Source: a virus (Duplodnaviria; Heunggongvirae; Uroviricota; Caudoviricetes). Taken from it: a stretch of DNA of 50,087 bases. The stretch lies in IMG/VR virus record IMGVR_UViG_2529292836_000016. The stretch is one strand, 5' to 3'. The position numbers and the translations under genes were made by a program. Numbering within the stretch: position 1 is the stretch's first letter; each line of letters begins with the position of its first letter. Shown piece by piece: positions 3,198-45,739 of this stretch. The notes under the pieces were generated by a model. That model searched no databases. It had not been told where the DNA came from and worked only from the letters and a program-made list of their open reading frames with translations.

Positions 3198-3829
3198 CGT
3201 ACAGCCTCCGCAATCCGGCCCAGCACCGTGTTATAAATCAGGCGCTCATCTGCCTGGCTGATACCCAGCAGCTCACGTACCGGGTAATCGGTGAAAATGC
3301 CCGGCGCAACCTGATCGCGCTCACCGAACTGATGAACGCGGGCAATACGTGCGGCCACGCCGCTGTAACCCACCGTCACACCGGAAGCATCTGCACGGGC
3401 TTTCAGGTAGCGGGCGGTGCGCAGTTTTACGAACATGGGGACGCGCTTTGTGCTGTCCTGGTTGATGCGCCGGGTGCGTATTTCCAGAAAACGGTCGATG
3501 TCATCCCGGTAAAACGTGCGGATATTGTTTTTATCCTCATCCCACCCGGTAATGGTTCGCCCGTATTTCCCCGTGTCGTGATGCCAGTTTTTCAGCGTGC
3601 GTGCTTCGTTATTCCAGATAAAGCGAATGCGCTCCTGTATCCGGGTTACGCGGCGTCTGCGTGGTGTCCACGCGGTCCCGTCCGGCGCTTTCTGTGACCG
3701 GATACGCGCCTGCTGGGCGCGGCGTAAATCCTGTGTCAGCTTTCTGGCGATGTTATTGATGGCCTGCTGATTCAGGCTGTCGCGGATGGCCTCAAAGGTT
3801 TCATCCACGCGGGTGAATGCCTTATCCAT
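3194..3829 (-). CDS. S: Virion morphogenesis / tail completion protein at the gpS position
   Basis: Track ORF 3194..3838 trimmed to ATG (MDKAFTRVDETF...); follows R and precedes V as in P2. Longer than P2 gpS, so family assignment is by position. Confidence 0.6.
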   Translation of the reverse strand: MDKAFTRVDETFEAIRDSLNQQAINNIARKLTQDLRRAQQARIRSQKAPDGTAWTPRRRRVTRIQERIRFIWNNEARTLKNWHHDTGKYGRTITGWDEDKNNIRTFYRDDIDRFLEIRTRRINQDSTKRVPMFVKLRTARYLKARADASGVTVGYSGVAARIARVHQFGERDQVAPGIFTDYPVRELLGISQADERLIYNTVLGRIAEAVR

Positions 3830-4289
3830 CGCTTTCACCCCACGTCACATCCTGGAATACATGCGACCAGTCGCCTTCGGGAGATGGCAGGCGGGGTTTT
3901 GGCTCCGGCAGGTGTTCTGCCTGCGGTGTCCCCTGACTGCTGCGCGTGATGCGAACGCGTTCCCGCAGGGGGAGCGTAAACAGGAGATCGGCGCTGTCAT
4001 CGTCATTGATAACGGCGGAGAATTTGATGTCCTGATTACGCTCAGGGTTGAGCAACAACTGTGGCTGATTTTCGGATAACCACGCCAGCAGCGGCAGCGT
4101 GAGGTCGTCCAGCTCCCCGGCGTAATCCATGACAAACATCACCATCTGATAGCGGTAAACAAACGAGGGCGTTTCTCCGGTCGTTTCAATGTTGCCGCTC
4201 TCCACGAAAATGGTGAATTTTTCCGGGTTGGCCTGACACCATCGGCATGAACGGGTCATGGCTTCACGCAGGGAATCAGTTTTCAGCAT
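3822..4289 (-). CDS. R: Tail completion protein gpR-like
   Basis: 155 aa 'MLKTDSLREAMT...', same length and N-terminal pattern as P2 gpR. Confidence 0.75.
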   Translation of the reverse strand: MLKTDSLREAMTRSCRWCQANPEKFTIFVESGNIETTGETPSFVYRYQMVMFVMDYAGELDDLTLPLLAWLSENQPQLLLNPERNQDIKFSAVINDDDSADLLFTLPLRERVRITRSSQGTPQAEHLPEPKPRLPSPEGDWSHVFQDVTWGESDG

Positions 4290-9254: not shown

Positions 9255-11006
9255 ATGATTCAGGACGCTTTTGTGCGCCAGCGTGCGCGGCAACTTTACT
9301 GGCAGGGTTATCCGCCCGCAGAAATATCACGTCTGATGGGAATAAACCCGAACACGATTTATGCGTGGAAAAAACGCGACCAGTGGGATGAAACGCCACC
9401 CGTGCAGCGTGTCACGCAGTCCATCGATGCGCGCCTCATCCAGCTTACTGAAAAACAGAATAAAACAGGTGGTGACTTTAAGGAAATAGACCTGCTGACC
9501 CGGCAGCTTAAAAAACTGCATGATGGCCAGCCGGATGCGACGGCCACAGGAAAGAAAGGCCGGGCGAAAAAACTTAAAAATCATTTCACGCCGGAGCAGA
9601 TTGCCGCACTGCGGGAAAAAATCATCAGCAGGCTGGAGTGGCATCAGCGGGGCTGGTTTGACTCCCTGACCCTTTGCAGTGAAGCCGGGATACGTAACAG
9701 GATGATCCTGAAATCCCGACAGATTGGGGCGACCTGGTATTTTGCACAGGAAGCACTGCTGATGGCGCTGCGTGACGATGTGGCACAACCTTACCAGCGT
9801 AACCAGATTTTTTTGTCTGCGTCGCGTCGTCAGGCGTTCCAGTTTAAAAGCATTATTCAGAAGGCCGCGGCTGAAGTTGATGTGGAGCTGAAAGGGGGCG
9901 ATAAAATCATCCTCTCCAACGGCGCAGAACTGCATTTTCTCGGTACTTCTGCTGCGACGGCACAGTCCTACACAGGTAATTTTTATTTTGATGAATTTTT
10001 CTGGGTCAGTCGCTTTGCTGAACTGCGCAAGGTGGCTGGCGCTATGGCAACCCTCAGCGGACTGCGGCGCACCTACTTCTCCACGCCATCCACCGAAACG
10101 CACGAGGCATACGTCTATTGGAACGGCGACCGCTGGAACGAGAAAAAGGCCGCGCATAAACGCCAGCGTTTTTCTGTGGACTGGAAAACGCTGCATAACG
10201 GACTTATCTGCCCCGACCGGACGTGGCGGCAAATTGTCACGCTGGAAGATGTGGTTAATCACGGCTGGAAACACACCGATATTGATGAAATTCGTGATGA
10301 AAACACCGAAGACGAGTTCCGCAATCTCTATATGTGTGAGTTTGTCCGCGAAGGGGAATCGGCATTTAACCTGAATATCCTGATTGGCTGCGGTGTTGAT
10401 GGATACGACGACTGGAAAGACTGGAAACCTTTTGCTCCCCGCCCGATGGGGAATCGTCCGGTATGGATTGGGTATGACGCAAACGGCAGCAGTGGAAACG
10501 GCGACAGCGGCGCGGTGTCCGTGGTGGTTCCTCCGGCTGTTCCTGGTGGCCGTTTTCGAACGGTGGAGACGCGACGCGTTCAGGGGCTGGAGTTTGAAGA
10601 ACAGGCCAGAGTCATTGAAGAGTTCACGTGTCGCTACAACGTGGAACACATCGGCATTGATGCGACTGGCGGGCACGGGGATGCCGTTTATCAGATAGTG
10701 AAACGGTTTTTCCCTGCTGCTATTCCGTACACCTTCACGCTGTCATCAAAACGGTCGCTGGTACTGAAAATGCTGCAAATAATGCGTGCCGGGCGGTGGG
10801 AATACGATCGTGCCGAACGCGAGCTGGTCGCGGCCTTTAACGCCGTGCGTAAGGTGAAAACACCGGGCGGCTTTATCACTTACGAAACGGACCGAGCGAG
10901 GGGGATCAGCCACGGCGACCTTGCGTGGGCAACCATGCTTGCTGTCATTAATGAACCGATTGGCGGCGAAGGAGAAAACGAGCGTTTCACGGTTATGGAG
11001 TTCTGA
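9255..11006 (+). CDS. P: Terminase ATPase (large) subunit gpP-like
   Basis: 583 aa; P-Q translational coupling (ATGA overlap at 11003-11008). Confidence 0.85.
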   Translation: MIQDAFVRQRARQLYWQGYPPAEISRLMGINPNTIYAWKKRDQWDETPPVQRVTQSIDARLIQLTEKQNKTGGDFKEIDLLTRQLKKLHDGQPDATATGKKGRAKKLKNHFTPEQIAALREKIISRLEWHQRGWFDSLTLCSEAGIRNRMILKSRQIGATWYFAQEALLMALRDDVAQPYQRNQIFLSASRRQAFQFKSIIQKAAAEVDVELKGGDKIILSNGAELHFLGTSAATAQSYTGNFYFDEFFWVSRFAELRKVAGAMATLSGLRRTYFSTPSTETHEAYVYWNGDRWNEKKAAHKRQRFSVDWKTLHNGLICPDRTWRQIVTLEDVVNHGWKHTDIDEIRDENTEDEFRNLYMCEFVREGESAFNLNILIGCGVDGYDDWKDWKPFAPRPMGNRPVWIGYDANGSSGNGDSGAVSVVVPPAVPGGRFRTVETRRVQGLEFEEQARVIEEFTCRYNVEHIGIDATGGHGDAVYQIVKRFFPAAIPYTFTLSSKRSLVLKMLQIMRAGRWEYDRAERELVAAFNAVRKVKTPGGFITYETDRARGISHGDLAWATMLAVINEPIGGEGENERFTVMEF

Positions 11007-12052
11007 TGAGCAGAAAAAATAAAAAAGTGCGCATGAGTTCACGCATTGATCTCGCTGATGCGCTCAGGAAAGAATCATCGCTCAGTGCATTCACATTTGA
11101 TGGTCCTTATCGCCTGACCGGGCATGACCTGCTGGACAATATGTACTGTGCTGATAACGGGCGGTGGTATGAAACCCCGGTGGACTGGTACGGTCTGGCA
11201 AGAGCTGCCCGGCAAACGTCCTGGCATCAGTCTGCGCTTTACTTTAAGCGCAATGTATTGCTCGGCTGCTATATTCCGCACCCGCTGCTTTCCCGGCAGG
11301 ATTTCTCGGCGCTGGCGCTGGACTGGTTTGTGTTCGGTAACGCATTCCTTGAGCTTCGGAGCAATATGCTCGGCGAACCGCTTAAATTACGGCACGCCCT
11401 GGCGAAATACATGCGACGCGGAAGCGATCTTGAATCATGGTGGTATGTGCAGGATGGCAAGGACGCGTTTCAGTTTCGTCCTGGCAAAGTGTGCCACCTG
11501 ATGAATCCGGATATTAACCAGGAAATCTACGGCATGCCGGAATATCTTGGCGCATTACTCTCGGCCAGCCTTTCTCATTCGGCGGACATGTTCAGAAAAC
11601 TGTACTACGACAACGGATCCCACGCCGGGTGCATCATCTACATCGGTGCAGCGCAGGTAAACCGCGAAAGCATGGACTCCCTGAAAGAAACGCTACAGGG
11701 GGCACGTGGTGGTGGTGCGTTTAAAAACGTGCTCATTCATGCGCCCAACGGGGGCAAAGAGGGGGTGCAAATTTTGCCGTTCCAGCAGATCACCGCAAAG
11801 GATGAGTTCATGAATGTTAAGGCGGCATCCCGTGATGATGTGCTGGCTGCGCACCGCGTTCCGCCGCAACTGATGGGGGCGATGCCGGGCGAAAAAAGTG
11901 CGTTTGGTGATGTGGAGAAGGCCGCGCGGGTTTACGCAATTAACGAGCTGATGCCCGTCATGGAGGCCATGAAGCACATCAATGACTGGCTTGGCGAAGA
12001 GGTGATCCGCTTTAACCCTTACGCACTGTTAGATACCCAGCCCACATCCTGA
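11006..12052 (+). CDS. Q: Portal vertex protein gpQ-like
   Basis: 348 aa; follows P; matches P2 Q in length and position. Confidence 0.85.
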   Translation: MSRKNKKVRMSSRIDLADALRKESSLSAFTFDGPYRLTGHDLLDNMYCADNGRWYETPVDWYGLARAARQTSWHQSALYFKRNVLLGCYIPHPLLSRQDFSALALDWFVFGNAFLELRSNMLGEPLKLRHALAKYMRRGSDLESWWYVQDGKDAFQFRPGKVCHLMNPDINQEIYGMPEYLGALLSASLSHSADMFRKLYYDNGSHAGCIIYIGAAQVNRESMDSLKETLQGARGGGAFKNVLIHAPNGGKEGVQILPFQQITAKDEFMNVKAASRDDVLAAHRVPPQLMGAMPGEKSAFGDVEKAARVYAINELMPVMEAMKHINDWLGEEVIRFNPYALLDTQPTS

Positions 12053-12662
12053 CGCGCTTCGCTTGTCTGCTGCTTCGCCGGGGCATAAAAAATTTATGCC
12101 CCGACTCTCCAGCTCCTGTATCAGTCAGATAATTTCACGACGCTTTCCTGCTTATTGCCATCATCGACGGTCAGATTCTTACGCAATCCCACTGCGCTGA
12201 CTGCATGTTCTCGCCGCCTCAGTGCGATTTTGACGGCCTTACCTTTCACCCCATCAAACCAGAATCCCTCACGTATTTTTCACGCTCAGCGTGAGAAATA
12301 CGGCCATTCTGTCGTGTCGCTGCGACATCGTTAAGGGAACGCTATTTACCCCCTGAAACGCGGGCTGTTCCCCCGTCCCCTGCGCGCAGAAAAAACGCGT
12401 TTTTTTGTGCACGCACGGATCCCTGACGGATCCAGCCGCCACGCGGGCCGGAAGGGCAAAAAGTCCTTCAAAAAAATTGTGCAAATTTGTGCACTATTGT
12501 GCAGTAGAGCGATACATGATTTTCGCCTTTATTTCAGTGTGTTCAGGTGGTCATTCTCAATACCCATTTGGTGAGAGACAGGAATAAAAATGATCTTTAT
12601 CAGTAGGTTATGTGTGTGATTAAATTAGATGCAGCACGTTTAGTCCCCAGAACCCAAGACCA
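12053..12662. other. Q-proximal noncoding region, probable cos/packaging region and cargo boundary
   Basis: In P2, cos lies just beyond the 3' end of Q. Region has a 25-bp palindrome (12079-12103), an imperfect palindrome (about 12276-12306), AAAAAACGCGTTTTTT (about 12390-12408) and three TTGTGCA repeats (about 12475-12505). No canonical P2 cos 19-mer recognised. Confidence 0.3.
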
Positions 12663-13469
12663 ATGAAAGATAACAATCAGAAAAAAATGATATGGCATGT
12701 TGCCTGTGATGAATCTGGCGTTGATGGGCAGCCATTCTACGGATTTGGGAGTCTCTGGATGAGCTATCAGAGGCGCGCTGAACTCACTCGCATGGTACAG
12801 GATTTGAGAAAAAAGCATGGATGCAGTGATGAGCTCAAATGGCAGAAAGCACATTCAAAGCGTAATGCAGCTTTTTATAGCGACGTCATTGATGTGTTTT
12901 TTAGGCACAACTGGATGGCTTTTCACTGTATTATTGTTGAGAAGTCTAAAGTAGAAAAATCATATCATGGTGGGGATTATGATCTTGCAATGCGTAAGCA
13001 TTTTTGCAAGCTTATTGAAACCAAAATAGGTAACGTGATCCAAAGGTGGCCTCATGCGGAATGTGAGTTCCTTATAGAAGTTGATCCCCTGCCATCTCGT
13101 TACAAAAAAGCCGATGAAGAGTTTCACATAATTGCCAACCATTCTCTGGCCCGAAAATATGGGCGCAAGGACATAATTAAACTAGTTGAAACAAAAGACT
13201 CAAAAACATCGGAACATATTCAGCTTGTCGATTTTTTATTAGGGGCTGTAATGTGTGCATATCAAAGGAAAGCCACTTCTCCAGCGAAACTGGCTATGGC
13301 AGAGAAAATCGCTTCTTATCTTGGGTGGGAATCATTACGGCACGATACCTGGCCGACAGAACGAAAATTCAATATCTGGTTGTTTTTTGATAAAAAGAAG
13401 GGGCCAAGAGATATTGAAACGAAAGAGGTTAATTTGCGATATAAATTACCCCCTTTGCGTAAAAAATAG
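12663..13469 (+). CDS. DUF3800-like protein (cargo at the P2 old/tin-equivalent locus)
   Basis: 268 aa; N-terminal 'IWHVACDESGVDGQP' resembles the DUF3800 D-E-S-G signature; markedly lower GC than flanking phage genes; convergent with parMR. Confidence 0.5.
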   Translation: MKDNNQKKMIWHVACDESGVDGQPFYGFGSLWMSYQRRAELTRMVQDLRKKHGCSDELKWQKAHSKRNAAFYSDVIDVFFRHNWMAFHCIIVEKSKVEKSYHGGDYDLAMRKHFCKLIETKIGNVIQRWPHAECEFLIEVDPLPSRYKKADEEFHIIANHSLARKYGRKDIIKLVETKDSKTSEHIQLVDFLLGAVMCAYQRKATSPAKLAMAEKIASYLGWESLRHDTWPTERKFNIWLFFDKKKGPRDIETKEVNLRYKLPPLRKK

Positions 13470-13700
13470 CGCCAACCTCTCAGCTGGCGTGGTTGGAGTC
13501 CCAGTCTGACGACGAAGTTACCAACTAGGCGGTATCAACTTTTGGGGGGCCGCCTCTAAATCCCCAAAACCTTGAAATCTGCGTAAAACATAACGTTGAA
13601 AACGTTTAAATTCAATAAATTTTTCTGTGAATCGGGGCGTCTATATCTGCCCCTCTTAAGTTTAGCTTCACTTCCCCTGGGGATGCTTCACCGTATTGCC

Positions 13701-14012
13701 TTATTCGGGGAATAACGCCCTGATATTTCCGGCCATCTGACTGGTTATCTGTGCGGTTGGTACTGGCTGTGACACGGGGCGTTCTGTCCTGGTTTGTGTC
13801 ACGGATAACGCCTCATCGTCAGCCCATGCAGCTAGTCGGTAAGCCTCTGCTGGATTCATTTTCAGAAGTGCCAGCCCAGCCAGAAAAGCCACGCGTTGGC
13901 CGCTTTTGCGGGCTTCTGGTGTAAGGCTGTCCAGCCAGGCGCATGCTTCGCTTTCGTTCTTGACGGCCGCAGGCTTCAGATAGAAACTTATCCGTCTGGT
14001 TGGTGTCGTCAT
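13701..14012 (-). CDS. parR: ParR-like partition adaptor
   Basis: Trimmed to 'MTTPTRRISFYLKPAAVKNESEACAWLDSLTPEARKSGQRVAFLAGLALL...', resembling plasmid R1 ParR N-terminal RHH region; immediately downstream of parM. Start uncertain. Confidence 0.55.
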   Translation of the reverse strand: MTTPTRRISFYLKPAAVKNESEACAWLDSLTPEARKSGQRVAFLAGLALLKMNPAEAYRLAAWADDEALSVTQTRTERPVSQPVPTAQITSQMAGNIRALFPE

Positions 14013-14016
14013 TGGT

Positions 14017-14976
14017 TTACTCCTTGTCCATTGCGTACAGCCCATTAACCAGAGCAAACTGTGGCACCCCGTCCGCGATGAAAGTCGCATTAACTCCGCA
14101 GGCTTCGCGGATAGCGGGTGCCACAATCTCCGCCCCTCCACCGACAACCATCACCCGCCCGTAACCGGAAAAACCCGCCAGCGCGCGGATCACTCGTTGT
14201 TTCAGTGTCTCCTCCTTTTCACGAATAACCGCCATCAGGCTGTTGTAATGCGCGTCATTGTGAATGTGCTGGCGCAGCCAGGCTTCATCGTGACGGTGCT
14301 CAATAATGGTATTGGCGATGTGGTGACTGGTACGCATACCGTTAGTGGCCATCACCGACAGTACGGCATCGGCCATCAGGGAAACGCCTACGTGTGGATC
14401 GCAAAACACCTGGCTGATACCTGCCAGTTGTCCCTGAACCTTTGCCACATCCAGCGTGGTTCCGCCTAAATCCACAATCAGCAGGGATTCAAACGGACTC
14501 ATGTCAGCCAGTGCCTTAAAGCCAGCCGGAATGGATTCAGGCATAACCCGTACATTACGGATAGTGAATGCTTCGCCGTTCTGGTATTCCACCGGGCGCA
14601 TAACGTTCGCTTTTTTGCGGTTGATGTTGGCCATGTCCGGCTGTGCGTTTGTGTCGAAATACTCGCTCAGTGGCAGGGTGACAACCACATCCACCTCCTG
14701 TGGCGTGATGCCTGATTTGACCAGCGCGTGATGAATGGCAATGACATTCACATCACTGTACTGATATTGCGTGTCAGTCGTCTGGACAAAGCGATCGCTG
14801 ACCGGATCAAAACCATAGCGCACGCTATCAAGCATGTAGTTCGCGGGCTGCGTGCCACCGAACGGCGCAGACCATTCCGACTTGAAGCTGTTCGGGCTGA
14901 TGGCGTTGCGGCGTTCGCCGTTCTCAGTCCATGCCAGCTTGATGTTGGTGGAGCCGTCGTCGATACAAATTTTCAT
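14017..14976 (-). CDS. parM: ParM/StbA-family actin-like segregation ATPase
   Basis: 319 aa; 'ICIDDGSTNIKLAW', 'YSDVNVIAIHHAL', 'VMPESIPAG', 'LIVDLGGTTLD', 'VMVVGGGAE' match ParM (plasmid R1) motifs throughout. Confidence 0.85.
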   Translation of the reverse strand: MKICIDDGSTNIKLAWTENGERRNAISPNSFKSEWSAPFGGTQPANYMLDSVRYGFDPVSDRFVQTTDTQYQYSDVNVIAIHHALVKSGITPQEVDVVVTLPLSEYFDTNAQPDMANINRKKANVMRPVEYQNGEAFTIRNVRVMPESIPAGFKALADMSPFESLLIVDLGGTTLDVAKVQGQLAGISQVFCDPHVGVSLMADAVLSVMATNGMRTSHHIANTIIEHRHDEAWLRQHIHNDAHYNSLMAVIREKEETLKQRVIRALAGFSGYGRVMVVGGGAEIVAPAIREACGVNATFIADGVPQFALVNGLYAMDKE

Positions 14977-15004
14977 GTCGATTTTCCTTATGTTGATTAA
15001 TTAA

Positions 15005-15118
15005 TCGTTTACGGGATTTTTAAATCCCGTTTTCGCCTGTTTTGTGCGCGCTTCATATATCGCGGCGCGTTTTTTGCTCATTTACGGGATTTGTGAATCC
15101 CGTTTCTGTCTGTTTTTT
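15005..15118. repeat. Two copies of an about 38-bp direct repeat, each with a TTACGGGATTT/AAATCCCGT palindrome
   Basis: Copy 1 about 15007-15045, copy 2 about 15078-15116; located at the parM 5' flank and gene A 3' end. Confidence 0.5.
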
Positions 15119-17875
15119 GTTTCTACTGGTCAGGCCACCCCGCAGCAGGTCTGCTTTGCGGCGGGCGCGTTCAGTTGTTTCACTGATTCTCTGTGCGTGC
15201 TCTGCGTCACGAATGGCGCGCAGCATGTCAGAAAGCACGGTAACGGGGGTTTTCATGGTGTTCTGGTCCTGCTGAAGTGTGGATGCCAGACGTGCGGCGG
15301 CTTCGGGGTCTGATGCCCCCAGCTGTTCCAGATAGCTGGCGACCGGGTTATGGCGGATCTCCGTGCTGCTTACGCCGTGATTACGGCTCAGGTGCTGCCA
15401 GAGCTGCGTGATTCGGCTGTCCGGGCGGGTATCCGGTTTGCGTACAATTTCAAATCCCTGTGGTGCAATGATGCTGCCGTCAACGTACAGGCTGCCGCCC
15501 CGTAACAGGTGCTGCATCTGCTGTTCACCGATATGCAGGCCGAGAGATTCGGCAGATTCCCGCCATTCTTTAGCGAGTAATTCGTGGTTATCAGGCAAAG
15601 GCCGTGGCTGTTTGCGGCTCTGTGTCCAGTTCTGCATTTCATCACTGCTGTTTTTTGCCTGCTTGTCACGCAGCGAACGCATCAGCGCCCGGCGTTCGTG
15701 CCGTTTCAGTGAGCGCATCCATTCGTTCACTTCAACGCCGTCAGGGAGCTGCGGCCACGGTGCTGGCCGTTCTTCCGGCTGTTCTGTCCCGTTGTTGCCT
15801 GTTTCCTGTACACGGGGACAGTTATTGCCACGAGTCCAAGGGGCGGCAGGGCCGCCCTGAAGGTCAAAACCATTTTCGCGGGCGCTGTCTTCCGCTTCCG
15901 GTTTGCGTCTTACCAGCTTCCAGTTATCCGGATGCGTGCACACACGGGAGGATTCCCCGATGAGTGGTGACCAGATCCCGTAAATCTGTACGCTCTGTTC
16001 GCCGTAATCGTTCAGCTCATCTGCGAGGTCGTAGGCGGTGCGAATCAGGTAGTCTTGGCGTGGAACAAGTACGCCGCCCTGTTTCTCTATGTAGGAGGCA
16101 AAACACCCGGCATCAGCGGCAGCGAGCACTGCATCCATTGCGTCATCCTTCAGCCGTTGCGGGCCTTCCGGGTTGCGTGCCATCTGGCTGGCAAGGCGGC
16201 GCAGTTCACGCCACACCTGACGGGAGGGGATGCCAAAGAACTGGAACTGGCGGACCCGGTGAAGGCGCGCCCAGCCGATGGCGCGCTCCACGCTCTCGGC
16301 CATTGATTTTCCGGTTTCGTGGTCAACGCGTGGCTTGCCCGTTTTCGGGTCGATACCATCCACGGCGCGGCTGTCCAGGTTCTTTCCGATGTAGGTGGCG
16401 ATGTAGCTGGTCGGTGTGCCTTTTGAGCCGTCGACGTACTCTGCCTTAAAGCGTGGGGTAATATCATCACCCAGCTCGTGACGATCTTCCTGAATGGCAA
16501 TATCGCGGGTGTGGGACACAATGGTGTCGATTTCTTCCGGATGAGCAAAGACCATCATATGCCAGTGCACGGTGCCGTCATGGTGAGGCTCCACCGTGCG
16601 GATGCCATACCAGCGCAGGCCGTCGCGGTTCAGTTTCTTGCGGACCGCCGCAAAAAACGAGTTAACCAGGTAATCGCTGGAGTCGCGCATAGTGGCCCCG
16701 TTCCATTTGGGATTCGGATGACCGTTCTCCGTTGTTGCGTGGTACTTCGAAGGGGTGGTGACAGTCAGAAACACCGCTCTGTCGCCACGGGCTTCGGCCA
16801 GAAGTTCCAGCCCCTTCATGGTGGCCATCATTTCTGCCTTACGGTGAACCGGGTTACTTACTCCCGCGTAATACACTGTCTCAAGATCAATCGTGAACCC
16901 GTCTTCGTTTTCCAGCATGAAACTTTTCAGGAAATCGCGTGTTTTCTCGCGCTGTGCGCGAAACTCGCTTAACGCATCCTGGCTCAGATAGGGCGATGTT
17001 TTTCTGGAAACCAGACAGGCGGCGCGGAGTTGTTCTTCTCTCCACTCGCAACGTAACAGCCACAGTTTGCGTTTCCACCATTCCGCACAGGTCAGGCGAA
17101 GGATTGCGCCCGGCAGCAGCTCCGTGTCTGGTTCGTTCCTCCGGCCTTTGTCTGTTGTCAGTGCGTCATAATGCGGAGGCATGGCGTGCAGGTGTAACGC
17201 CATGCGGGCCAGCATCTGATACGCCTTCAGCGTTACATCCATGGTCAGCTCGCCATCAGTCGCACCAAAGCCATCGCAGAGTTTTTCGAAGGTGCTGCTG
17301 AACATCGCCGCCGTCATGGTGGCCAGCGTCTGTATCTGGTGTTTGTTGAGCTGCGGCAGGTAAAGCAAATCGTCCAGGCGTTCGCGTCCGGCAAGGGAGC
17401 GATAACCCGGTGTCAGCCAGTGTCCGTCAGTGCGATCCAGACGTTCGAATATTTTGCGCAGGGTTCCGCGTGCATAGCGTTCTGCCTGCCAGCTCTTTTT
17501 GCCTTTCCGGCGATCGACTTCCTGTTTTTTGCGCAGGAAGGAGAGGTGGCGAATAAGCGGATCGCGCAGATAGGACGGCAGCAGGCGCAGCGAGGCCATG
17601 GCTTCATCCACCGCGCCGCGTGCCTGTCTTCTGGCGTCTCCTGCCAGCGTGATGGTTTTGTCCTGTTTTTCCTGTGCGTCCAGGCTTTTATTAATCAGGT
17701 TGCCCAGTGGCGTGGCAGAGAACGCCGCATCAGCCTTTTCCTGTCGGCGCTCGTTCTCTGCCTGGTAGGCATCCAGCCAGGAGGAAAGCGCGGATTCAGG
17801 TGCGGGGATCCCCGTTCCTTCACGCCCCACTGCGTGGCGCGGTTGTTGCCAGTCCCTGATGTACTCTGTCGTCAT
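15053..17875 (-). CDS. A: Replication initiation endonuclease gpA-like (rolling-circle Rep)
   Basis: 940-aa ORF (true start may be internal); 'VEPHHDGTVHWHMMVF' HUH-type motif and 'YIATYIGKN' tyrosine motif typical of P2 A family. Confidence 0.8.
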   Translation of the reverse strand: MTTEYIRDWQQPRHAVGREGTGIPAPESALSSWLDAYQAENERRQEKADAAFSATPLGNLINKSLDAQEKQDKTITLAGDARRQARGAVDEAMASLRLLPSYLRDPLIRHLSFLRKKQEVDRRKGKKSWQAERYARGTLRKIFERLDRTDGHWLTPGYRSLAGRERLDDLLYLPQLNKHQIQTLATMTAAMFSSTFEKLCDGFGATDGELTMDVTLKAYQMLARMALHLHAMPPHYDALTTDKGRRNEPDTELLPGAILRLTCAEWWKRKLWLLRCEWREEQLRAACLVSRKTSPYLSQDALSEFRAQREKTRDFLKSFMLENEDGFTIDLETVYYAGVSNPVHRKAEMMATMKGLELLAEARGDRAVFLTVTTPSKYHATTENGHPNPKWNGATMRDSSDYLVNSFFAAVRKKLNRDGLRWYGIRTVEPHHDGTVHWHMMVFAHPEEIDTIVSHTRDIAIQEDRHELGDDITPRFKAEYVDGSKGTPTSYIATYIGKNLDSRAVDGIDPKTGKPRVDHETGKSMAESVERAIGWARLHRVRQFQFFGIPSRQVWRELRRLASQMARNPEGPQRLKDDAMDAVLAAADAGCFASYIEKQGGVLVPRQDYLIRTAYDLADELNDYGEQSVQIYGIWSPLIGESSRVCTHPDNWKLVRRKPEAEDSARENGFDLQGGPAAPWTRGNNCPRVQETGNNGTEQPEERPAPWPQLPDGVEVNEWMRSLKRHERRALMRSLRDKQAKNSSDEMQNWTQSRKQPRPLPDNHELLAKEWRESAESLGLHIGEQQMQHLLRGGSLYVDGSIIAPQGFEIVRKPDTRPDSRITQLWQHLSRNHGVSSTEIRHNPVASYLEQLGASDPEAAARLASTLQQDQNTMKTPVTVLSDMLRAIRDAEHAQRISETTERARRKADLLRGGLTSRNKKQTETGFTNPVNEQKTRRDI

Positions 17876-18550: not shown

Positions 18551-18717
18551 GGTGTGGCCTCTTTGGTTGTAAGTTTTGAAAACTCACCATCCAGAGCTGC
18601 GAAACTGTGGGTGGCGAGACGTACGGGGTTCGCAGTACCGGCAACCAAAGAACCCGGCCCGACCGAAGTCGGCCCCGTACGCCCCGCCATAATTCTGACG
18701 CGAAAAAAACGTGGCAA

Positions 18718-18745
18718 TACAGTACGCACAAAAAAACCGCTGGCG
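18718..18745 (-). terminator. Putative intrinsic terminator downstream of the SPFH cassette
   Basis: Stem aaccgc/gcggtt preceded on plus strand by an A-run (U-tract on minus strand); a second hairpin ccggccag...ctggccgg lies at about 18886-18912. Confidence 0.4.
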
Positions 18746-18917
18746 CGGTTGTGCGCTTTGGTTGTCAGCAGGCTGCGAAACCCGGCACCCGTTTTATGAG
18801 GTGCAGCGAAAATGTAACCTGACTGATTGCGGCATGGCAAGCGGTTTTTTTGTGAGAACGGCATACTAAAAAATCCTGATACTGCTCCGGCCAGCGGTTT
18901 GCACTGGCCGGGTGTCA

Positions 18918-43954: not shown

Positions 43955-45739
43955 ATGGCAGTGAACAATCTGGATCGTTCCCGGTGGTACATGGGAAATG
44001 TTCTCTGGTTCGGAGGCTACAACAGCAAAACGGATCGGGAGAATAACTTTGGCTTTCTCTTATCAGAGAATGGTAATGAGCTGTTTTTTCATAAGAATGA
44101 GATAAGCCGGAACTATACACCCGCTGACAATGCACCTGTGCTGTTCAGGGAAGGTACAGGTAAAAATGGTAAGCCTACGGCTTTTAATGTTCACATTCTT
44201 GATAAAACAGATGAGGAGACGGCTGAGCTCCTTATTGAATATCTCCGGGCTATTATTGAGGAGGGCGTTGATTTCGCTCGTTGGCGTTATCGTGACTGCG
44301 TTATTAATTTTCTCACTCAGTCCTTTGGCGAAAGGGCTATAATTCGGTTAGTTACCAGTGATATAGCTGCTACAAAAGTCTTGCCGCTATTTTTAAAATC
44401 ACGTAACTACGATAACCAGTTTGCACTTTTCGCCTCTGATAAGAATTTTGATGATTTGACCGCACAACAAATATCTCCTGCGGTCATGCCTTCGTCATTT
44501 ATCGATAATAACATTGATCAGTTCGCTGTTTGGGTGAAAAGGTGTTCTGCGGCTACGGATTGCCAGGGGGCTTCAACATCGGACATCATCAATGAATTAC
44601 TCAGCCATATATCTATAAGTGCTATTCTCTACCTGGCATTTTACGATTGTATAAGCAGCGAGCGGATTCTTGAACATCGGCATGATGATATAGAGAATTT
44701 TGTTCGACGTAGTTTCACGAAAAATAAAATGGATATACAACCATTTGTCCGTGATGCCTATCAGCAGAAATTCTCATCGAGAGAGCAATTTTATAAACAT
44801 TCCGTGATTAGTCCTTTTGTCAATAATTATTTGATTAAACAGAAGATGTTTAGGAAAGATTTCAGTTTTGTTAATGATATTGAGTCGAATACTGAAATTT
44901 CTTCTGACCCTGAATACTTTATTCTGAGTAAATTGTTACCGCTGATTGGGCGTAACGATGAACAGTCCGTTCTGAGTATTATTCTGCATGAGATATGGCA
45001 GGGGGTGTTGTCGGGTAAAATCCCGGTAAGCCATCCTTCTGTTTTCAAATTGTTCCCACAGTGTAGCTCATTGAAAATTCGTTCCCGGAATTTAAAATTA
45101 TCCTGTGAGGCATTTCACTGGAATGCAAAACAACCTGACGGAACGATAGAGAAAAAATTCCTTTGTCGTTCGAAAATCTGCCATGATCCGCAGGTACTGC
45201 CCGACCTCAGTCGGGATTACATCGACTTCACTATTTATGACTGGCTTTCCCACTATGGCATGACCTATCTGATTGCAGGCGAACCTTCTAAGCGGGATTT
45301 CCCAATTAAACTGGCTGGGTATTTCAATCGTATCAGAGAATTACATTCCCGCTTGCATTGCCGAAGTTGTGGGGTGCTGATGGTTCCAGATATGAAATAT
45401 GCTCGTGTGGAAGTCAGCGTCTGGGATACAAAGTCGAAAGGATTTGTGAAAAAACCTTTCCAGGCCGCGTATCGCCTGACCGTCTTTAAATGTGCCAGTC
45501 ATTCGTGCGAACAGTTTGGTATCGGGCATTACATTAATCACTGTATTGGTTACAAATGCAGCGAAATAATTGACGCCAGGGATTTGCATGAAAAATGTTC
45601 AGAAGGACGATTTATTTGTGCATCCTGTGGTTCCTGCTGTACGACGCATCAGGAGAAATTTGGTAATGTAAACAAGGGCGAAACAGAACAGGTCAAGTAC
45701 AATCGCCTTTATCGGGACTCGCCGTTCTTTTCATCATAA
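43955..45739 (+). CDS. Large protein with cold-shock-like N-terminal OB fold and Cys/His-rich C-terminal putative zinc-binding module
   Basis: Track ORF 43877..45739 trimmed to ATG at 43955 (GGAAGGGGG RBS). N-terminus 'GNVLWFGGYNSKTDRENNFGFLLSENGNELFFHKNEI...KPTAFNVHIL' follows the CSD pattern; C-terminus 'CRSCG...CASHSC...GHYINHC...CASCGSCC'. Confidence 0.7.
   Translation: MAVNNLDRSRWYMGNVLWFGGYNSKTDRENNFGFLLSENGNELFFHKNEISRNYTPADNAPVLFREGTGKNGKPTAFNVHILDKTDEETAELLIEYLRAIIEEGVDFARWRYRDCVINFLTQSFGERAIIRLVTSDIAATKVLPLFLKSRNYDNQFALFASDKNFDDLTAQQISPAVMPSSFIDNNIDQFAVWVKRCSAATDCQGASTSDIINELLSHISISAILYLAFYDCISSERILEHRHDDIENFVRRSFTKNKMDIQPFVRDAYQQKFSSREQFYKHSVISPFVNNYLIKQKMFRKDFSFVNDIESNTEISSDPEYFILSKLLPLIGRNDEQSVLSIILHEIWQGVLSGKIPVSHPSVFKLFPQCSSLKIRSRNLKLSCEAFHWNAKQPDGTIEKKFLCRSKICHDPQVLPDLSRDYIDFTIYDWLSHYGMTYLIAGEPSKRDFPIKLAGYFNRIRELHSRLHCRSCGVLMVPDMKYARVEVSVWDTKSKGFVKKPFQAAYRLTVFKCASHSCEQFGIGHYINHCIGYKCSEIIDARDLHEKCSEGRFICASCGSCCTTHQEKFGNVNKGETEQVKYNRLYRDSPFFSS

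What the first reader, a model, noticed from the sequence alone, without database searches (positions are those of the whole stretch)
12663..13469. Low-GC DUF3800-like gene at the P2 old/tin-equivalent cargo locus
Seen: a single AT-rich gene between the cos side of Q and the end of the replication module, opposite in orientation to gene A. Established: in P2-like phages this position holds old or tin and is a documented hotspot for anti-phage cargo. Inference: candidate defence or exclusion gene. I cannot place it in a named system from memory.
Basis: partly seen in the sequence, partly recalled or inferred. Interest (0 to 1): 0.65.

Follow-up and report, generated by a model that had tools for sequence, protein, structure and literature searches.

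The report
Prophage nuclease gene paired with lambda-6S-like RNA
A self-contained cargo gene for an RNase H-like nuclease sits in the known defence hotspot of a P2-family prophage, and it is always paired in enteric bacteria with a structured small RNA that turns out to be a relative of phage lambda's 6S RNA, a transcript known since 1971 with no assigned function.

Summary
ORF 12663-13469 (+) is a real 268-aa gene, a Pfam DUF3800 member at about 40% GC against about 55% in the flanks. It lies in a 1.2-kb variable slot (12505-13700) between portal gene Q/cos and parR-parM-gpA of a P88-like (Xuanwuvirus) prophage. Relatives carry other cargo there.

A 115-nt structured RNA with a pseudoknot lies convergent to the gene at 13466-13585 (-). 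Covariation is strong. Its terminator overlaps the stop codon.
- **Linkage.** The RNA follows 67 of 67 testable enteric phage copies of the gene, and it also occurs alone.
- **Identity.** It is homologous to the lambda 6S (pR' leader) RNA (91.6 bits).

A defence role is plausible but untested. I favour a nuclease held in check by, or working with, the 6S-like RNA.

The parts
12505..13700 (.). Variable cargo slot of the P88-like prophage. The whole module lies inside it.
   Evidence: blastn against P88, Shae_phiSM, 520873, 569R5 and Entero_P88 loses homology at 12503-12505 and regains it at 13701. The relatives carry unrelated genes there.
12597..12625 (+). Predicted sigma-70 promoter of the DUF3800 gene: -35 TTATCA (12597-12602), 17-nt spacer ending in TGA (extended -10), -10 TTAAAT (12620-12625).
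   Evidence: The block AAAACGATCTTTATCA-N17-TTAAAT is conserved upstream of the gene in 13 Enterobacterales loci whose surroundings are otherwise unrelated. Promoter function is inferred.
12663..13469 (+). DUF3800 gene, 268 aa, predicted RNase H2-like nuclease. Invariant residues are D16, E17, D141, D151, E152, D179, Q187 and D190.
13466..13585 (-). Lambda-6S-like structured small RNA, convergent to the gene.
   Evidence: Covariance model R1 scores 117 bits, E=9e-31, and this is the only hit in the window. G-U wobbles favour this strand, 22 against 5. Homology to lambda 6S RNA is shown.
13540..13569 (-). Hairpin S2 of the RNA (UUUUGGGG 13569-13562 pairs with CCCCAAAA 13547-13540). Its loop carries GGCGG (13554-13550).
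   Evidence: Fully compensatory variants occur in other copies, for example GUGAGUUAGG/CCUAACUCAC and GGUAGUGAG/CUUACUACC in lambda.
13528..13554 (-). Pseudoknot helix S1: GGCGG (13554-13550) pairs with CCGCC (13532-13528).
   Evidence: Both strands are invariant in 60 distinct sequences and 99.7% paired. There is no covariation, so this helix is supported by conservation and geometry only.
13492..13525 (-). Helix P2 (GUUGG 13525-13521 / CCAAC 13496-13492) enclosing hairpin P3 (13513-13511 / 13506-13504) and conserved internal loops UMACUUCG and CUGGRACU.
   Evidence: P2 shows a compensatory G-C to C-G change in 12 divergent copies. P3 shows changes on both sides at all three pairs.
13461..13489 (-). 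Hairpin P1 (CGCCA 13489-13485 / UGGCG 13474-13470) capped by GCU-GAGA-GGU, followed by a U-run. This is the terminator of the RNA, and it is complementary to the last codons AAA AAA TAG of the DUF3800 gene.
   Evidence: It was flagged as a terminator-like site on the - strand. All four P1 pairs covary. Tetraloop variants GAGA, GUGA, GAAA and GGGA keep the GNRA form.
13587..13615 (-). Predicted promoter of the RNA: -35 TTGAAT (13615-13610), 17-nt spacer, -10 TATGTT (13592-13587).
   Evidence: Sequence. Sigma-70-like hexamers (TTGACT-17-TAGATT and similar) lie at about the same distance from the RNA in many linked loci and in lambda pR'. Inferred.
13634..13663 (+). Terminator-like hairpin on the gene strand, downstream of the RNA gene. 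If used, the DUF3800 mRNA 3' UTR would be fully antisense to the RNA.
   Evidence: Inference only.
11006..12052 (+). Portal gene Q, the left conserved flank. The Q-proximal intergenic region 12053-12503 is conserved among P88-like phages and probably holds cos.
   Evidence: The linear record NC_049391 is split near window 12459, which is consistent with cos there. The P2 cos 19-mer recalled from memory was not found.
13701..14976 (-). parR (13701-14012) and parM (14017-14976), the right conserved flank, followed by gpA 15053-17875.
   Evidence: Pfam Plasmid_stab_B, StbA_N/ParM and Phage_GPA. Annotation of relatives.

Best explanation
The slot holds an autonomous two-part cargo module.

- **Part 1** is a gene with its own promoter for a single-domain DUF3800 protein. 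This is a metal-dependent nuclease with an RNase H2-like fold and an intact set of invariant acidic residues. Its arrangement suggests it is expressed in the lysogen.
- **Part 2** is a convergent, separately promoted, roughly 115-nt pseudoknotted RNA of the lambda 6S RNA family. Its terminator abuts the stop codon of the gene.

I propose that the nuclease is a prophage-borne anti-phage (exclusion or abortive-infection) effector that cuts RNA or RNA-DNA hybrids. I further propose that the 6S-like RNA is its partner, most likely a restraining, antitoxin-like RNA. It would act by binding the protein or by antisense pairing with the 3' end of the mRNA.

Under this view, free-standing 6S leaders in lambda-like phages would double as an antidote.

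**Shown:** the gene, the fold, the motifs, the hotspot location, the RNA structure, the linkage and the homology to lambda 6S.
**Inferred:** nuclease activity, the defence role, and any protein-RNA interaction.
For: Gene and fold:
- DUF3800 hit.
- Confident model, pLDDT 90.2.
- Best fold matches are RNase HII/H2A/HIII, then PIWI and RuvC domains.
- D16-E17, D141, D151-E152, D179 and Q187xxD190 are invariant in 35 homologues down to 44% identity.

Cargo and defence context:
- Variable slot between gpQ/cos and gpA, a documented hotspot (PMC9122126).
- PADLOC PDC-M04A at E=2.6e-35.
- Homologues lie between Q and holin of lambdoid prophages in reverse orientation, beside a 186-like prophage end, on conjugative plasmids, and as single-gene integron cassettes.
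- Flanking ORFs include type II/III methyltransferases, PD-Lambda-1, mad2, McrBC and TOTE genes. No shared neighbour exists: 91 of 111 flanking ORFs are singletons.
- DUF3800 domains are effectors or accessories in retron type VII and in Cas12a2/a3, Cas13 and type III loci (PMC7736814, PMC10910872, PMC13594972, PMC12669027).

RNA:
- 93.9% of cells paired against 79.0% in shuffles.
- 206 double-change cells against 53.
- Covariation score 0.374 against 0.116 (0/500 shuffles reach it); slid controls are at most 0.078 (independent MAFFT alignment).

Linkage:
- 67 of 75 IMG/VR loci of this protein clade have the RNA. Seven of the other eight end at the contig edge and one is a Vibrio type.
- 14 of 16 Enterobacterales genome loci have it.
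- The RNA is 77-89% identical where the proteins are only 61-76% identical.
- The reverse does not hold: 37 viral contigs and most of 269 E. coli genomes carry the RNA without the gene. That asymmetry is what a toxin-antidote pair would give.
- DUF3800 genes are already known to associate with 11 other structured RNA classes, in either orientation, often with terminators (PMC5737381).
Against: - No experiment on this protein or on any close relative was found.
- PDC-M04 is only a candidate and is defined as multi-gene; no B partner is present.
- Close homologues (60-65% identity) in Vibrio, Colwellia, Shewanella and Psychromonas lack the RNA and sit alone in integron cassettes. The protein therefore does not need this RNA everywhere.
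- The RNA has a life of its own as the late-operon leader of lambda and as a lone element in P2-like hotspots. The linkage could reflect co-transfer of neighbours.
- No pairing between the RNA and the DUF3800 5' UTR beyond shuffled controls.
- No sequence-level relation to RNase HII, so the assignment of catalytic residues is by position only.
Confidence: 0.4

Rival explanations
1. The nuclease is a stand-alone defence or exclusion gene. The 6S-like RNA is an independent phage small RNA, for example an Hfq-dependent regulator or simply a leader/terminator module. It happens to be the gene's neighbour because the gene was first inserted just after a lambdoid pR' leader, and the two have since moved together.
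For: The RNA occurs alone in lambda, other lambdoid phages and P2/P88-like hotspots. Lambda 6S RNA binds Hfq and has its own RNA targets (10.1101/2024.10.31.621285). Marine homologues of the protein work without it as single-gene cassettes. Four linked loci are still next to Q genes.
Against: The pair stays together in non-lambdoid settings: the P88-like hotspot, plasmids, and chromosomal islands next to IS elements or methyltransferases. This holds over divergence down to about 60% protein identity. The RNA keeps its helices through compensatory changes. No testable enteric phage-borne copy of the gene has lost the RNA, and only two of 16 enteric genome loci lack it.
Confidence: 0.3
2. The module is an addiction (toxin-antitoxin) element that stabilises the prophage or plasmid, not a defence against other phages.
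For: The architecture is nuclease plus convergent RNA. The gene never occurs without the RNA in enterics while the RNA occurs alone. It is present on large conjugative plasmids and in integron arrays, where toxin-antitoxin cassettes are common. It lies next to parMR in the window.
Against: Most P88-like relatives lack it and carry other cargo in the same slot. The slot and the lambdoid Q-holin region are known for defence and moron cargo. Toxin-antitoxin and abortive-infection roles are not mutually exclusive.
Confidence: 0.12
3. The nuclease serves the phage itself or counters host immunity. For example, it could degrade RNA-DNA hybrids such as retron msDNA, process phage transcripts, or mature the 6S-like RNA.
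For: The RNase H-like fold. Phage-borne location. The lambda 6S RNA is seen as 194-nt and about 121-nt species, so something processes or terminates it.
Against: The gene has its own promoter and points against the neighbouring phage operons, as lysogen-expressed morons do. It also occurs outside phages, in integron cassettes, next to restriction-modification genes and on plasmids. Lambda makes both 6S species without any DUF3800 gene.
Confidence: 0.1

Closest known systems
Pfam DUF3800 (PF12686) proteins, including the retron type VII effector and the TPR-DUF3800 accessory proteins of Cas12a2/Cas12a3, Cas13 and type III CRISPR loci
   Same: Same domain, with the N-terminal DE and C-terminal QxxD motifs and an RNase H-like fold (PMC7736814, PMC10910872, PMC12669027). 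Same immune or mobile-element context. Same tendency to sit beside a structured non-coding RNA (PMC5737381).
   Different: Here the domain stands alone at 268 aa, with no reverse transcriptase, no TPR domain and no CRISPR locus. None of these relatives has a demonstrated biochemical activity either.
PADLOC phage-defence candidate PDC-M04 (gene A)
   Same: Strong match to both PDC-M04A profiles, E=2.6e-35 and 1.9e-18.
   Different: PDC-M04 is catalogued as a multi-gene candidate. No second PADLOC-recognised gene is adjacent in the window, and no conserved protein neighbour exists in 60 related loci. No paper on PDC-M04 was found.
Phage lambda 6S RNA (pR'-tR' leader transcript; Lebowitz et al. 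1971, as cited in PMC7547250)
   Same: The window RNA and lambda nucleotides 44599-44718 fit one covariance model, at 117 and 91.6 bits. They share the same helices, the same conserved loops and a promoter at the same distance.
   Different: In lambda the RNA is the leader of the late operon, downstream of Q, and ends at tR' 60 nt further on. In the window it is a free-standing gene in a P2-family phage that has no Q. It ends at its own P1 hairpin, convergent to a nuclease gene. Lambda 6S has no assigned function.
DUF3800-I to DUF3800-XI RNA motifs (Weinberg et al. 2017; at least two of them, DUF3800-I and -IX, are confirmed to be in Rfam)
   Same: A structured RNA next to a DUF3800 gene, in either orientation, often ending in a terminator, with unknown function.
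   Different: No Rfam 15 family, including those motifs, matches this RNA at E<=10 in the window or at E<=1 in four other loci. This one also occurs widely without a DUF3800 gene.
Toxin-antitoxin systems with RNA antitoxins: type III ToxIN, and type I pairs with 3'-overlapping antisense RNAs such as TxpA/RatA of Bacillus prophages
   Same: A nuclease gene plus a pseudoknotted RNA. The arrangement is convergent, with probable 3' overlap. The RNA can occur alone but the protein gene does not (in enterics). From my own knowledge, phage-encoded mimics of the antitoxin RNA are a known escape route for ToxIN.
   Different: There is no tandem-repeat RNA array upstream of the gene as in type III. The protein is not a small membrane peptide as in type I. 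No evidence yet of toxicity or binding.
old and tin of phage P2, and the validated cargo of the P2 cos-proximal hotspot (Rousset et al. 2022)
   Same: Same genomic slot between gpA and gpQ next to cos, the same reverse orientation as old, and the same turnover among related phages.
   Different: Unrelated protein family. In P88-like phages the slot is separated from gpA by parMR. No phenotype is known.

Membership tests
Pfam DUF3800 (PF12686) | Profile match above the curated gathering score | tested here: met
   41.2 bits against a cut-off of 21, E=3.5e-10, residues 15-196 on profile positions 4-146 of 149.
Pfam DUF3800 (PF12686) | N-terminal DE motif and C-terminal QxxD motif (as described in PMC7736814) | tested here: met
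   D16-E17 and Q187-x-x-D190 are invariant in 35 homologues.
RNase H-like superfamily, type 2 RNase H branch | RNase H fold | tested here: met
RNase H-like superfamily, type 2 RNase H branch | Detectable sequence homology to RNase HII/H2 | tested here: not met
   No PDB sequence hit by sequence or by profile. hhalign of the family profile against E. coli RnhB gives probability 0.2.
RNase H-like superfamily, type 2 RNase H branch | Four active-site carboxylates at the canonical structural positions, and cleavage of the RNA strand of hybrids | not testable with these tools
   Invariant acidic residues lie at the ends of strand 1 (D16, E17) and of the strand at 133-140 (D141), and in or near later helices (D151, D179, D190). 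Activity needs biochemistry.
PADLOC PDC-M04 candidate system | Gene A profile match | tested here: met
   PDLC04353 at E=2.6e-35 and PDLC04354 at E=1.9e-18.
PADLOC PDC-M04 candidate system | Presence of the partner gene(s) of the multi-gene candidate | tested here: not met
   The neighbours parR and parM have no PADLOC hit. PDC-M04B is not among the 25 most frequent families matched by 102 flanking ORFs of related loci. No conserved neighbour was found.
P2-family cos-proximal defence hotspot cargo (Rousset et al. 2022) | Located between gpA and gpQ next to cos, with content varying among related phages | tested here: met
   Caveat: parMR lies between the slot and gpA, and the cos position is inferred.
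P2-family cos-proximal defence hotspot cargo (Rousset et al. 2022) | Confers resistance to phages | not testable with these tools
   Needs cloning and plaque assays.
Retron type VII | Reverse transcriptase and msr/msd RNA next to the DUF3800 gene | tested here: not met
   The slot holds only the gene and the 6S-like RNA. The neighbours are the portal gene and parR. No retron or RT-associated Rfam family was found.
Lambda 6S RNA family (defined here by model R1) | Shared sequence and structure with lambda 44599-44718 | tested here: met
   Window 117 bits, lambda 91.6 bits on the same model. blastn links a lambdoid prophage copy to lambda at 97.9%.
Lambda 6S RNA family (defined here by model R1) | Position as leader of the late operon between Q/pR' and tR' | tested here: not met
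   The window is a P2-family phage without Q. The RNA lies between parR and the DUF3800 gene with its own predicted promoter.
Rfam DUF3800-associated RNA motifs and all other Rfam 15 families | Covariance-model match | tested here: not met
   No match at E<=10 over 11900-14200. None at gathering score in the window apart from C4 and isrK elsewhere. None at E<=1 in four further loci that carry the RNA.
Type III toxin-antitoxin (ToxIN-like) | Tandem repeats of the antitoxin RNA upstream of the toxin gene on the same strand | tested here: not met
   There is a single RNA copy, downstream and convergent.
Type III toxin-antitoxin (ToxIN-like) | Pseudoknotted RNA that binds and inhibits the nuclease | tested here: inconclusive
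   The pseudoknot is supported by geometry and invariant GGCGG/CCGCC. Binding is not testable here.

The most novel reading that the evidence does not exclude
The lambda 6S RNA family is the RNA partner of a clade of DUF3800 nucleases. In prophage and plasmid modules like this one, the RNA restrains or guides an RNase H-like immune nuclease. The constitutive 6S leader carried by lambda and many other temperate phages would then be a built-in antidote or decoy against that nuclease. This would give lambda 6S RNA its first function. It would also give the DUF3800-associated RNAs, unexplained since 2017, a mechanism that can be tested in E. coli.
Probability: 0.2. Interest if true: 0.85.

Novelty: new variant of a known kind. 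Interest (0 to 1): 0.68.

Why it matters
Two old loose ends meet here in a tractable organism.

- DUF3800 nucleases turn up in retrons, CRISPR loci and defence islands. They were linked in 2017 to eleven unexplained structured RNAs, and no activity or role has been shown for them.
- Lambda 6S RNA has been known since 1971. It is abundant in lysogens, binds Hfq and has no assigned function.

The window shows an E. coli prophage module in which a member of each family is fused tail to tail. Comparative data show that the nuclease gene is essentially never without the RNA in enteric bacteria, whereas the RNA is often alone. If the two interact, three things follow. It would define a new RNA-controlled immune nuclease. 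It would explain a conserved feature of lambdoid late leaders. It would point to an RNA-based counter-defence carried by many temperate phages. Even if they do not interact, the conserved pseudoknotted fold of the lambda 6S leader and its spread to P2-family phages and plasmids are worth recording.

Tried and rejected
- **Rfam.** Three scans found no family for the RNA.
- **tRNA or tRNA-like gene.** An early idea from a T-loop-like GGUUGGAGUCC. ARAGORN found nothing, and that stretch is part of helix P2.
- **RNA on the gene strand as a 3' UTR element.** This was my first orientation. It was rejected because promoters and terminators in lambdoid loci read the other way, and G-U wobbles favour the opposite strand 22 to 5.
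- **Identity with StxS, the known pR' small RNA of Stx phages.** The model finds nothing in the Sakai Sp5 Q-stx2 region.
- **Trans pairing of the RNA with the DUF3800 5' UTR.** Duplex energies are no better than for shuffled targets in 9 loci.
- **Sequence-level link to RNase HII or to any solved structure.** None found.
- **A conserved partner protein (PDC-M04B or other).** None among the flanking ORFs.
- **P2 cos 19-mer recalled from memory.** Absent from the window, so the cos position is inferred from synteny and from a record break near 12459.
- **Literature on PDC-M04 or PF12686.** Nothing useful.
- **Supplement of Weinberg 2017.** Not held.
- **2026 preprint mentioning DUF3800.** Could not be read.
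- **AlphaFold-database fold search.** Unavailable.
- **Single-sequence folding energy of the RNA.** Not unusual (z=-0.26). The case for structure rests on covariation.
Full report
**1. The observation**

ORF 12663-13469 (+) exists as described. It has an ATG start, encodes 268 aa, and the end coordinate includes the stop codon. GC is 0.39-0.43 across it, against 0.51-0.57 in the portal gene to the left and 0.55-0.57 in the partition genes to the right.

It is a real gene. It matches Pfam DUF3800 above the curated cut-off (41.2 against 21 bits). It matches PHROG 3732, of unknown function, at E=7e-133. It has 184 homologue clusters.

The window is a P88-like prophage (Xuanwuvirus, Peduoviridae). 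The nearest record is Escherichia phage Chuche, 98% identical over 12000-15100. The local order is scaffold O(-), terminase P(+), portal Q(+), the ORF(+), parR(-), parM(-), replication gene A(-). This is the P2 gpQ-cos-[old, tin]-gpA arrangement read from the other strand, with a ParMR partition pair added.

**2. The slot is a cargo hotspot**

blastn against five P88-like relatives loses homology at 12503-12505 and regains it exactly at the parR stop codon, 13701. In that interval the relatives carry unrelated genes. These include a small 'carboxylate-amine ligase' plus hypotheticals, a membrane protein, and a DUF4760 protein plus another gene.

Rousset et al. 2022 showed that the gpA-gpQ cos-proximal region of E. 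coli P2-like phages is a hotspot rich in anti-phage systems (PMC9122126).

**3. The protein**

An alignment of 35 homologues down to 44% identity shows these residues invariant: D16-E17, E57, K59, W60, H88, D141, D151-E152, D179-S-K, and Q187-x-x-D190. These include the DE and QxxD motifs that define DUF3800 (PMC7736814).

There is no sequence-level link to RNase HII or to any solved structure. The protein is therefore RNase H2-like by fold, not a member of that family by sequence. This agrees with published remarks that DUF3800 is an RNase H-fold nuclease (PMC10910872, PMC12669027). Nuclease activity is inferred and not shown.

**4. It is a self-contained single-protein unit**

A promoter-like block lies upstream of the gene: TTATCA, a 17-nt spacer with TGA, then TTAAAT, at 12597-12625. 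It is conserved in 13 Enterobacterales loci whose wider surroundings differ.

Homologues occur in these contexts:
- between antiterminator Q and the holin of lambdoid prophages, in reverse orientation (63% identity);
- beside the integrase end of a 186-like Salmonella prophage, next to an IS element (76%);
- on large conjugative Salmonella plasmids and an E. coli plasmid;
- in Colwellia and Psychromonas, as a single-gene cassette between attC-like repeats of a chromosomal integron array.

Among 111 ORFs flanking 60 related loci there is no shared neighbour, and 91 are singletons. Several neighbours are defence genes: type II and III methyltransferases, PD-Lambda-1, mad2, McrBC and TOTE.

PADLOC recognises the protein as gene A of candidate PDC-M04 (E=2.6e-35). 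The partner implied by the 'M' (multi-gene) label is absent, and I found no paper on that candidate.

**5.

The roughly 110 nt right after the stop codon are 77-89% identical in loci whose proteins are only 61-76% identical. A 20-nt core pattern taken from this stretch hits 95 IMG/VR contigs. Fifty of the hits have this DUF3800 clade immediately beside them, and 37 have none.

Every copy shows the same architecture:
- a hairpin (S2) whose loop carries GGCGG;
- that GGCGG pairs with a downstream CCGCC (S1, an H-type pseudoknot);
- a second helix (P2) encloses a small hairpin (P3) between two conserved internal loops;
- a final hairpin (P1) is capped by GCU-GNRA-GGU.

| Measure | MAFFT alignment, 35 seqs | Model-based alignment, 60 distinct seqs |
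|---|---|---|
| Cells forming standard pairs | 92.5% vs 81.8% in shuffles | 93.9% vs 79.0% |
| Double-change cells | 105 vs 37 | 206 vs 53 |
| Covariation score | 0.315 vs 0.135 | 0.374 vs 0.116 |
| Slid registers (covariation score) | at most 0.098 | at most 0.078 |

No shuffle of 500 reached the observed percentage paired, double-change cell count or covariation score in either alignment. The second alignment includes a divergent subgroup with a compensatory G-C to C-G change in P2. It is fitted to the model, which favours the structure. The MAFFT result shows the signal does not depend on that.

S1 is invariant, so it is supported only by conservation and geometry. Single-sequence folding energy is unremarkable.

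**6. Strand and transcription unit**

I first read the element on the gene strand. Three lines of evidence reverse that:
- In lambdoid loci read in the Q direction, the order is Q stop codon, a sigma-70 promoter (TTGACT-17-TAGATT), the element, then an intrinsic terminator.
- Sigma-70-like promoter hexamers lie at about the same distance from the RNA in many DUF3800-linked loci. In the window they are TTGAAT-17-TATGTT at 13615-13587.
- G-U wobbles outnumber A-C mismatches 22 to 5 on that strand, and 10 to 0 in P1.

The RNA is therefore on the window's minus strand, roughly 13580 to 13462, convergent to the gene. Its P1 hairpin and U-run were flagged as a terminator. The U-run is the complement of the gene's last codons, AAA AAA TAG. 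All linked copies have this A-run.

A terminator-like hairpin on the gene strand lies beyond the RNA gene at 13634-13663. If it is used, the mRNA 3' end would be antisense to the whole RNA. That point is inference.

**7. Identity of the RNA**

No Rfam 15 family matches it. RefSeq annotates nothing at its 280 places in 269 of 5426 complete E. coli genomes.

A lambdoid prophage copy is 97.9% identical to phage lambda 44586-44725. The covariance model scores lambda 44599-44718 at 91.6 bits, E=3e-25. In lambda this stretch lies just after pR' (TTGACT-17-TAAATT) and before tR'. It is therefore the body of the classical 194-nt lambda 6S RNA.

A 2024 preprint reports for lambda 6S:
- species of about 194 nt and about 121 nt;
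- Hfq binding;
- presence in lysogens;
- a role that 'has yet to be determined' (10.1101/2024.10.31.621285).

The 121-nt species is compatible with an end at P1. Sy et al. [quoted passage not shown] Their StxS RNA, from the same position in Stx phages, is unrelated, because the model finds nothing in Sakai Sp5.

The RNA sits next to Q genes of three Pfam families (PF03589, PF06323, PF06530) and of a fourth group with no Pfam hit. It also occurs without Q in P2- and P88-like hotspots.

**8. Linkage**

Starting from the protein, 75 IMG/VR loci of this clade were fetched. Sixty-seven have the RNA in the same convergent position. Seven of the other eight are cut at the contig end directly after the gene, and the eighth is a Vibrio-type copy with an attC-like flank.

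In one genome per species, 14 Enterobacterales loci have the RNA. Two do not: a probably frameshifted Pantoea copy and a 49%-identical Serratia copy. None of the marine, myxobacterial or acidobacterial loci has it. The whole unit from the gene's promoter to the RNA is also what is shared with plasmids.

In enteric bacteria, then, the gene is essentially never without the RNA, whereas the RNA is often without the gene.

**9. Interpretation**

- **Firm.** This is an autonomous cargo module in a known hotspot. It encodes an RNase H2-like DUF3800 protein with an intact conserved acidic site, fused tail to tail with a lambda-6S-family structured RNA.
- **Likely but untested.** The protein is a nuclease that serves the lysogen against other mobile elements. 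Supporting points are the context, the PADLOC candidate status, and DUF3800's repeated appearance as an effector or accessory in retron VII and in Cas12a2/a3, Cas13 and type III loci.
- **Speculative.** The one-sided dependence suggests that the RNA restrains or assists the nuclease. A known precedent is that eleven other RNA classes accompany DUF3800 genes. Orphan 6S leaders in lambdoid phages could then act as an antidote.

Against this speculation, marine homologues manage without the RNA. The RNA clearly has an independent existence. I also found no extra pairing with the gene's 5' UTR.

The main rival is that the two are merely co-travelling neighbours. Lesser rivals are an addiction module and a phage-serving or counter-defence nuclease.

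**10. Verdict**

As a gene it is a new member of a known, uncharacterised kind. With the 6S-like RNA it is a new variant that ties together two unexplained families in E. coli, where the decisive experiments are simple.

Noticed in passing
window 13466-13585 (-); lambda J02459 44599-44718 (L260 800-919): The body of the classical lambda 6S RNA (pR' leader) has a conserved pseudoknotted fold with strong covariation. It is not in Rfam and is unannotated in RefSeq. It is present in 269 of 5426 complete E. coli genomes and spread beyond lambdoid late operons to P2/P88-like hotspots and plasmids.
   Followed up: yes
window 13701-14976 (-): A ParR/ParM (StbB/StbA) plasmid-type partition pair sits between replication gene A and the cargo slot. 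It is conserved in P88-like phages, which is unusual for an integrating P2-family phage. Its role, such as an episomal stage, was not examined.
   Followed up: partly
window 18607-18694 (-) and 18730-18804 (-): Rfam finds a C4 antisense RNA (87 bits) and an isrK-like RNA (66 bits) side by side. The same pair is seen in a lambdoid E. coli prophage locus (L010 10572-10772). It is presumably part of an immunity or antirepressor control region.
   Followed up: no
L019 5879-6874; L029 5150-7516: In Colwellia and Psychromonas the DUF3800 homologue is a single-gene cassette between attC-like repeats (TAACAAG...GCCCnTTAAnnGGGCGTTAT) of a long chromosomal integron array. Vibrio, Ferrimonas and Salinivibrio-type copies have similar 3' flanks.
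   Followed up: partly
window 12587-12625 (+): A 39-nt block upstream of the gene, conserved across otherwise unrelated loci, reads as a sigma-70 promoter with an extended -10. This marks the gene as a classic moron with its own expression signals.
   Followed up: yes
L182 3035-3892 (E. coli ECL27829 P88-like prophage): Another P88-like prophage has the 6S-like RNA in the same slot without DUF3800. A 95-aa ORF with no Pfam hit precedes it, and a convergent Ogr/Delta-like zinc-finger gene follows it.
   Followed up: partly
L242, L257, L245, L243, L211, L229, L210, L219, L221, L252, L240 (about 3786-3900, -): A divergent subgroup of the RNA (34-43 bits) beside DUF3800 genes has a much shorter S2 loop and a longer P3. 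A terminator hairpin sits directly upstream in place of a promoter, so it may be expressed differently.
   Followed up: no
L092 (IMGVR_UViG_3300007505_000673, 2118 nt): Two identical copies of the RNA lie 1571 nt apart in a 2.1-kb contig. This is probably a circular or concatemeric assembly artefact.
   Followed up: no
phage record MW057783.1 (Campylobacter phage CJLB-4): This record matches lambda 44586-44725 at 97.9% at lambda-like coordinates. That suggests it is lambda sequence filed under another name.
   Followed up: no
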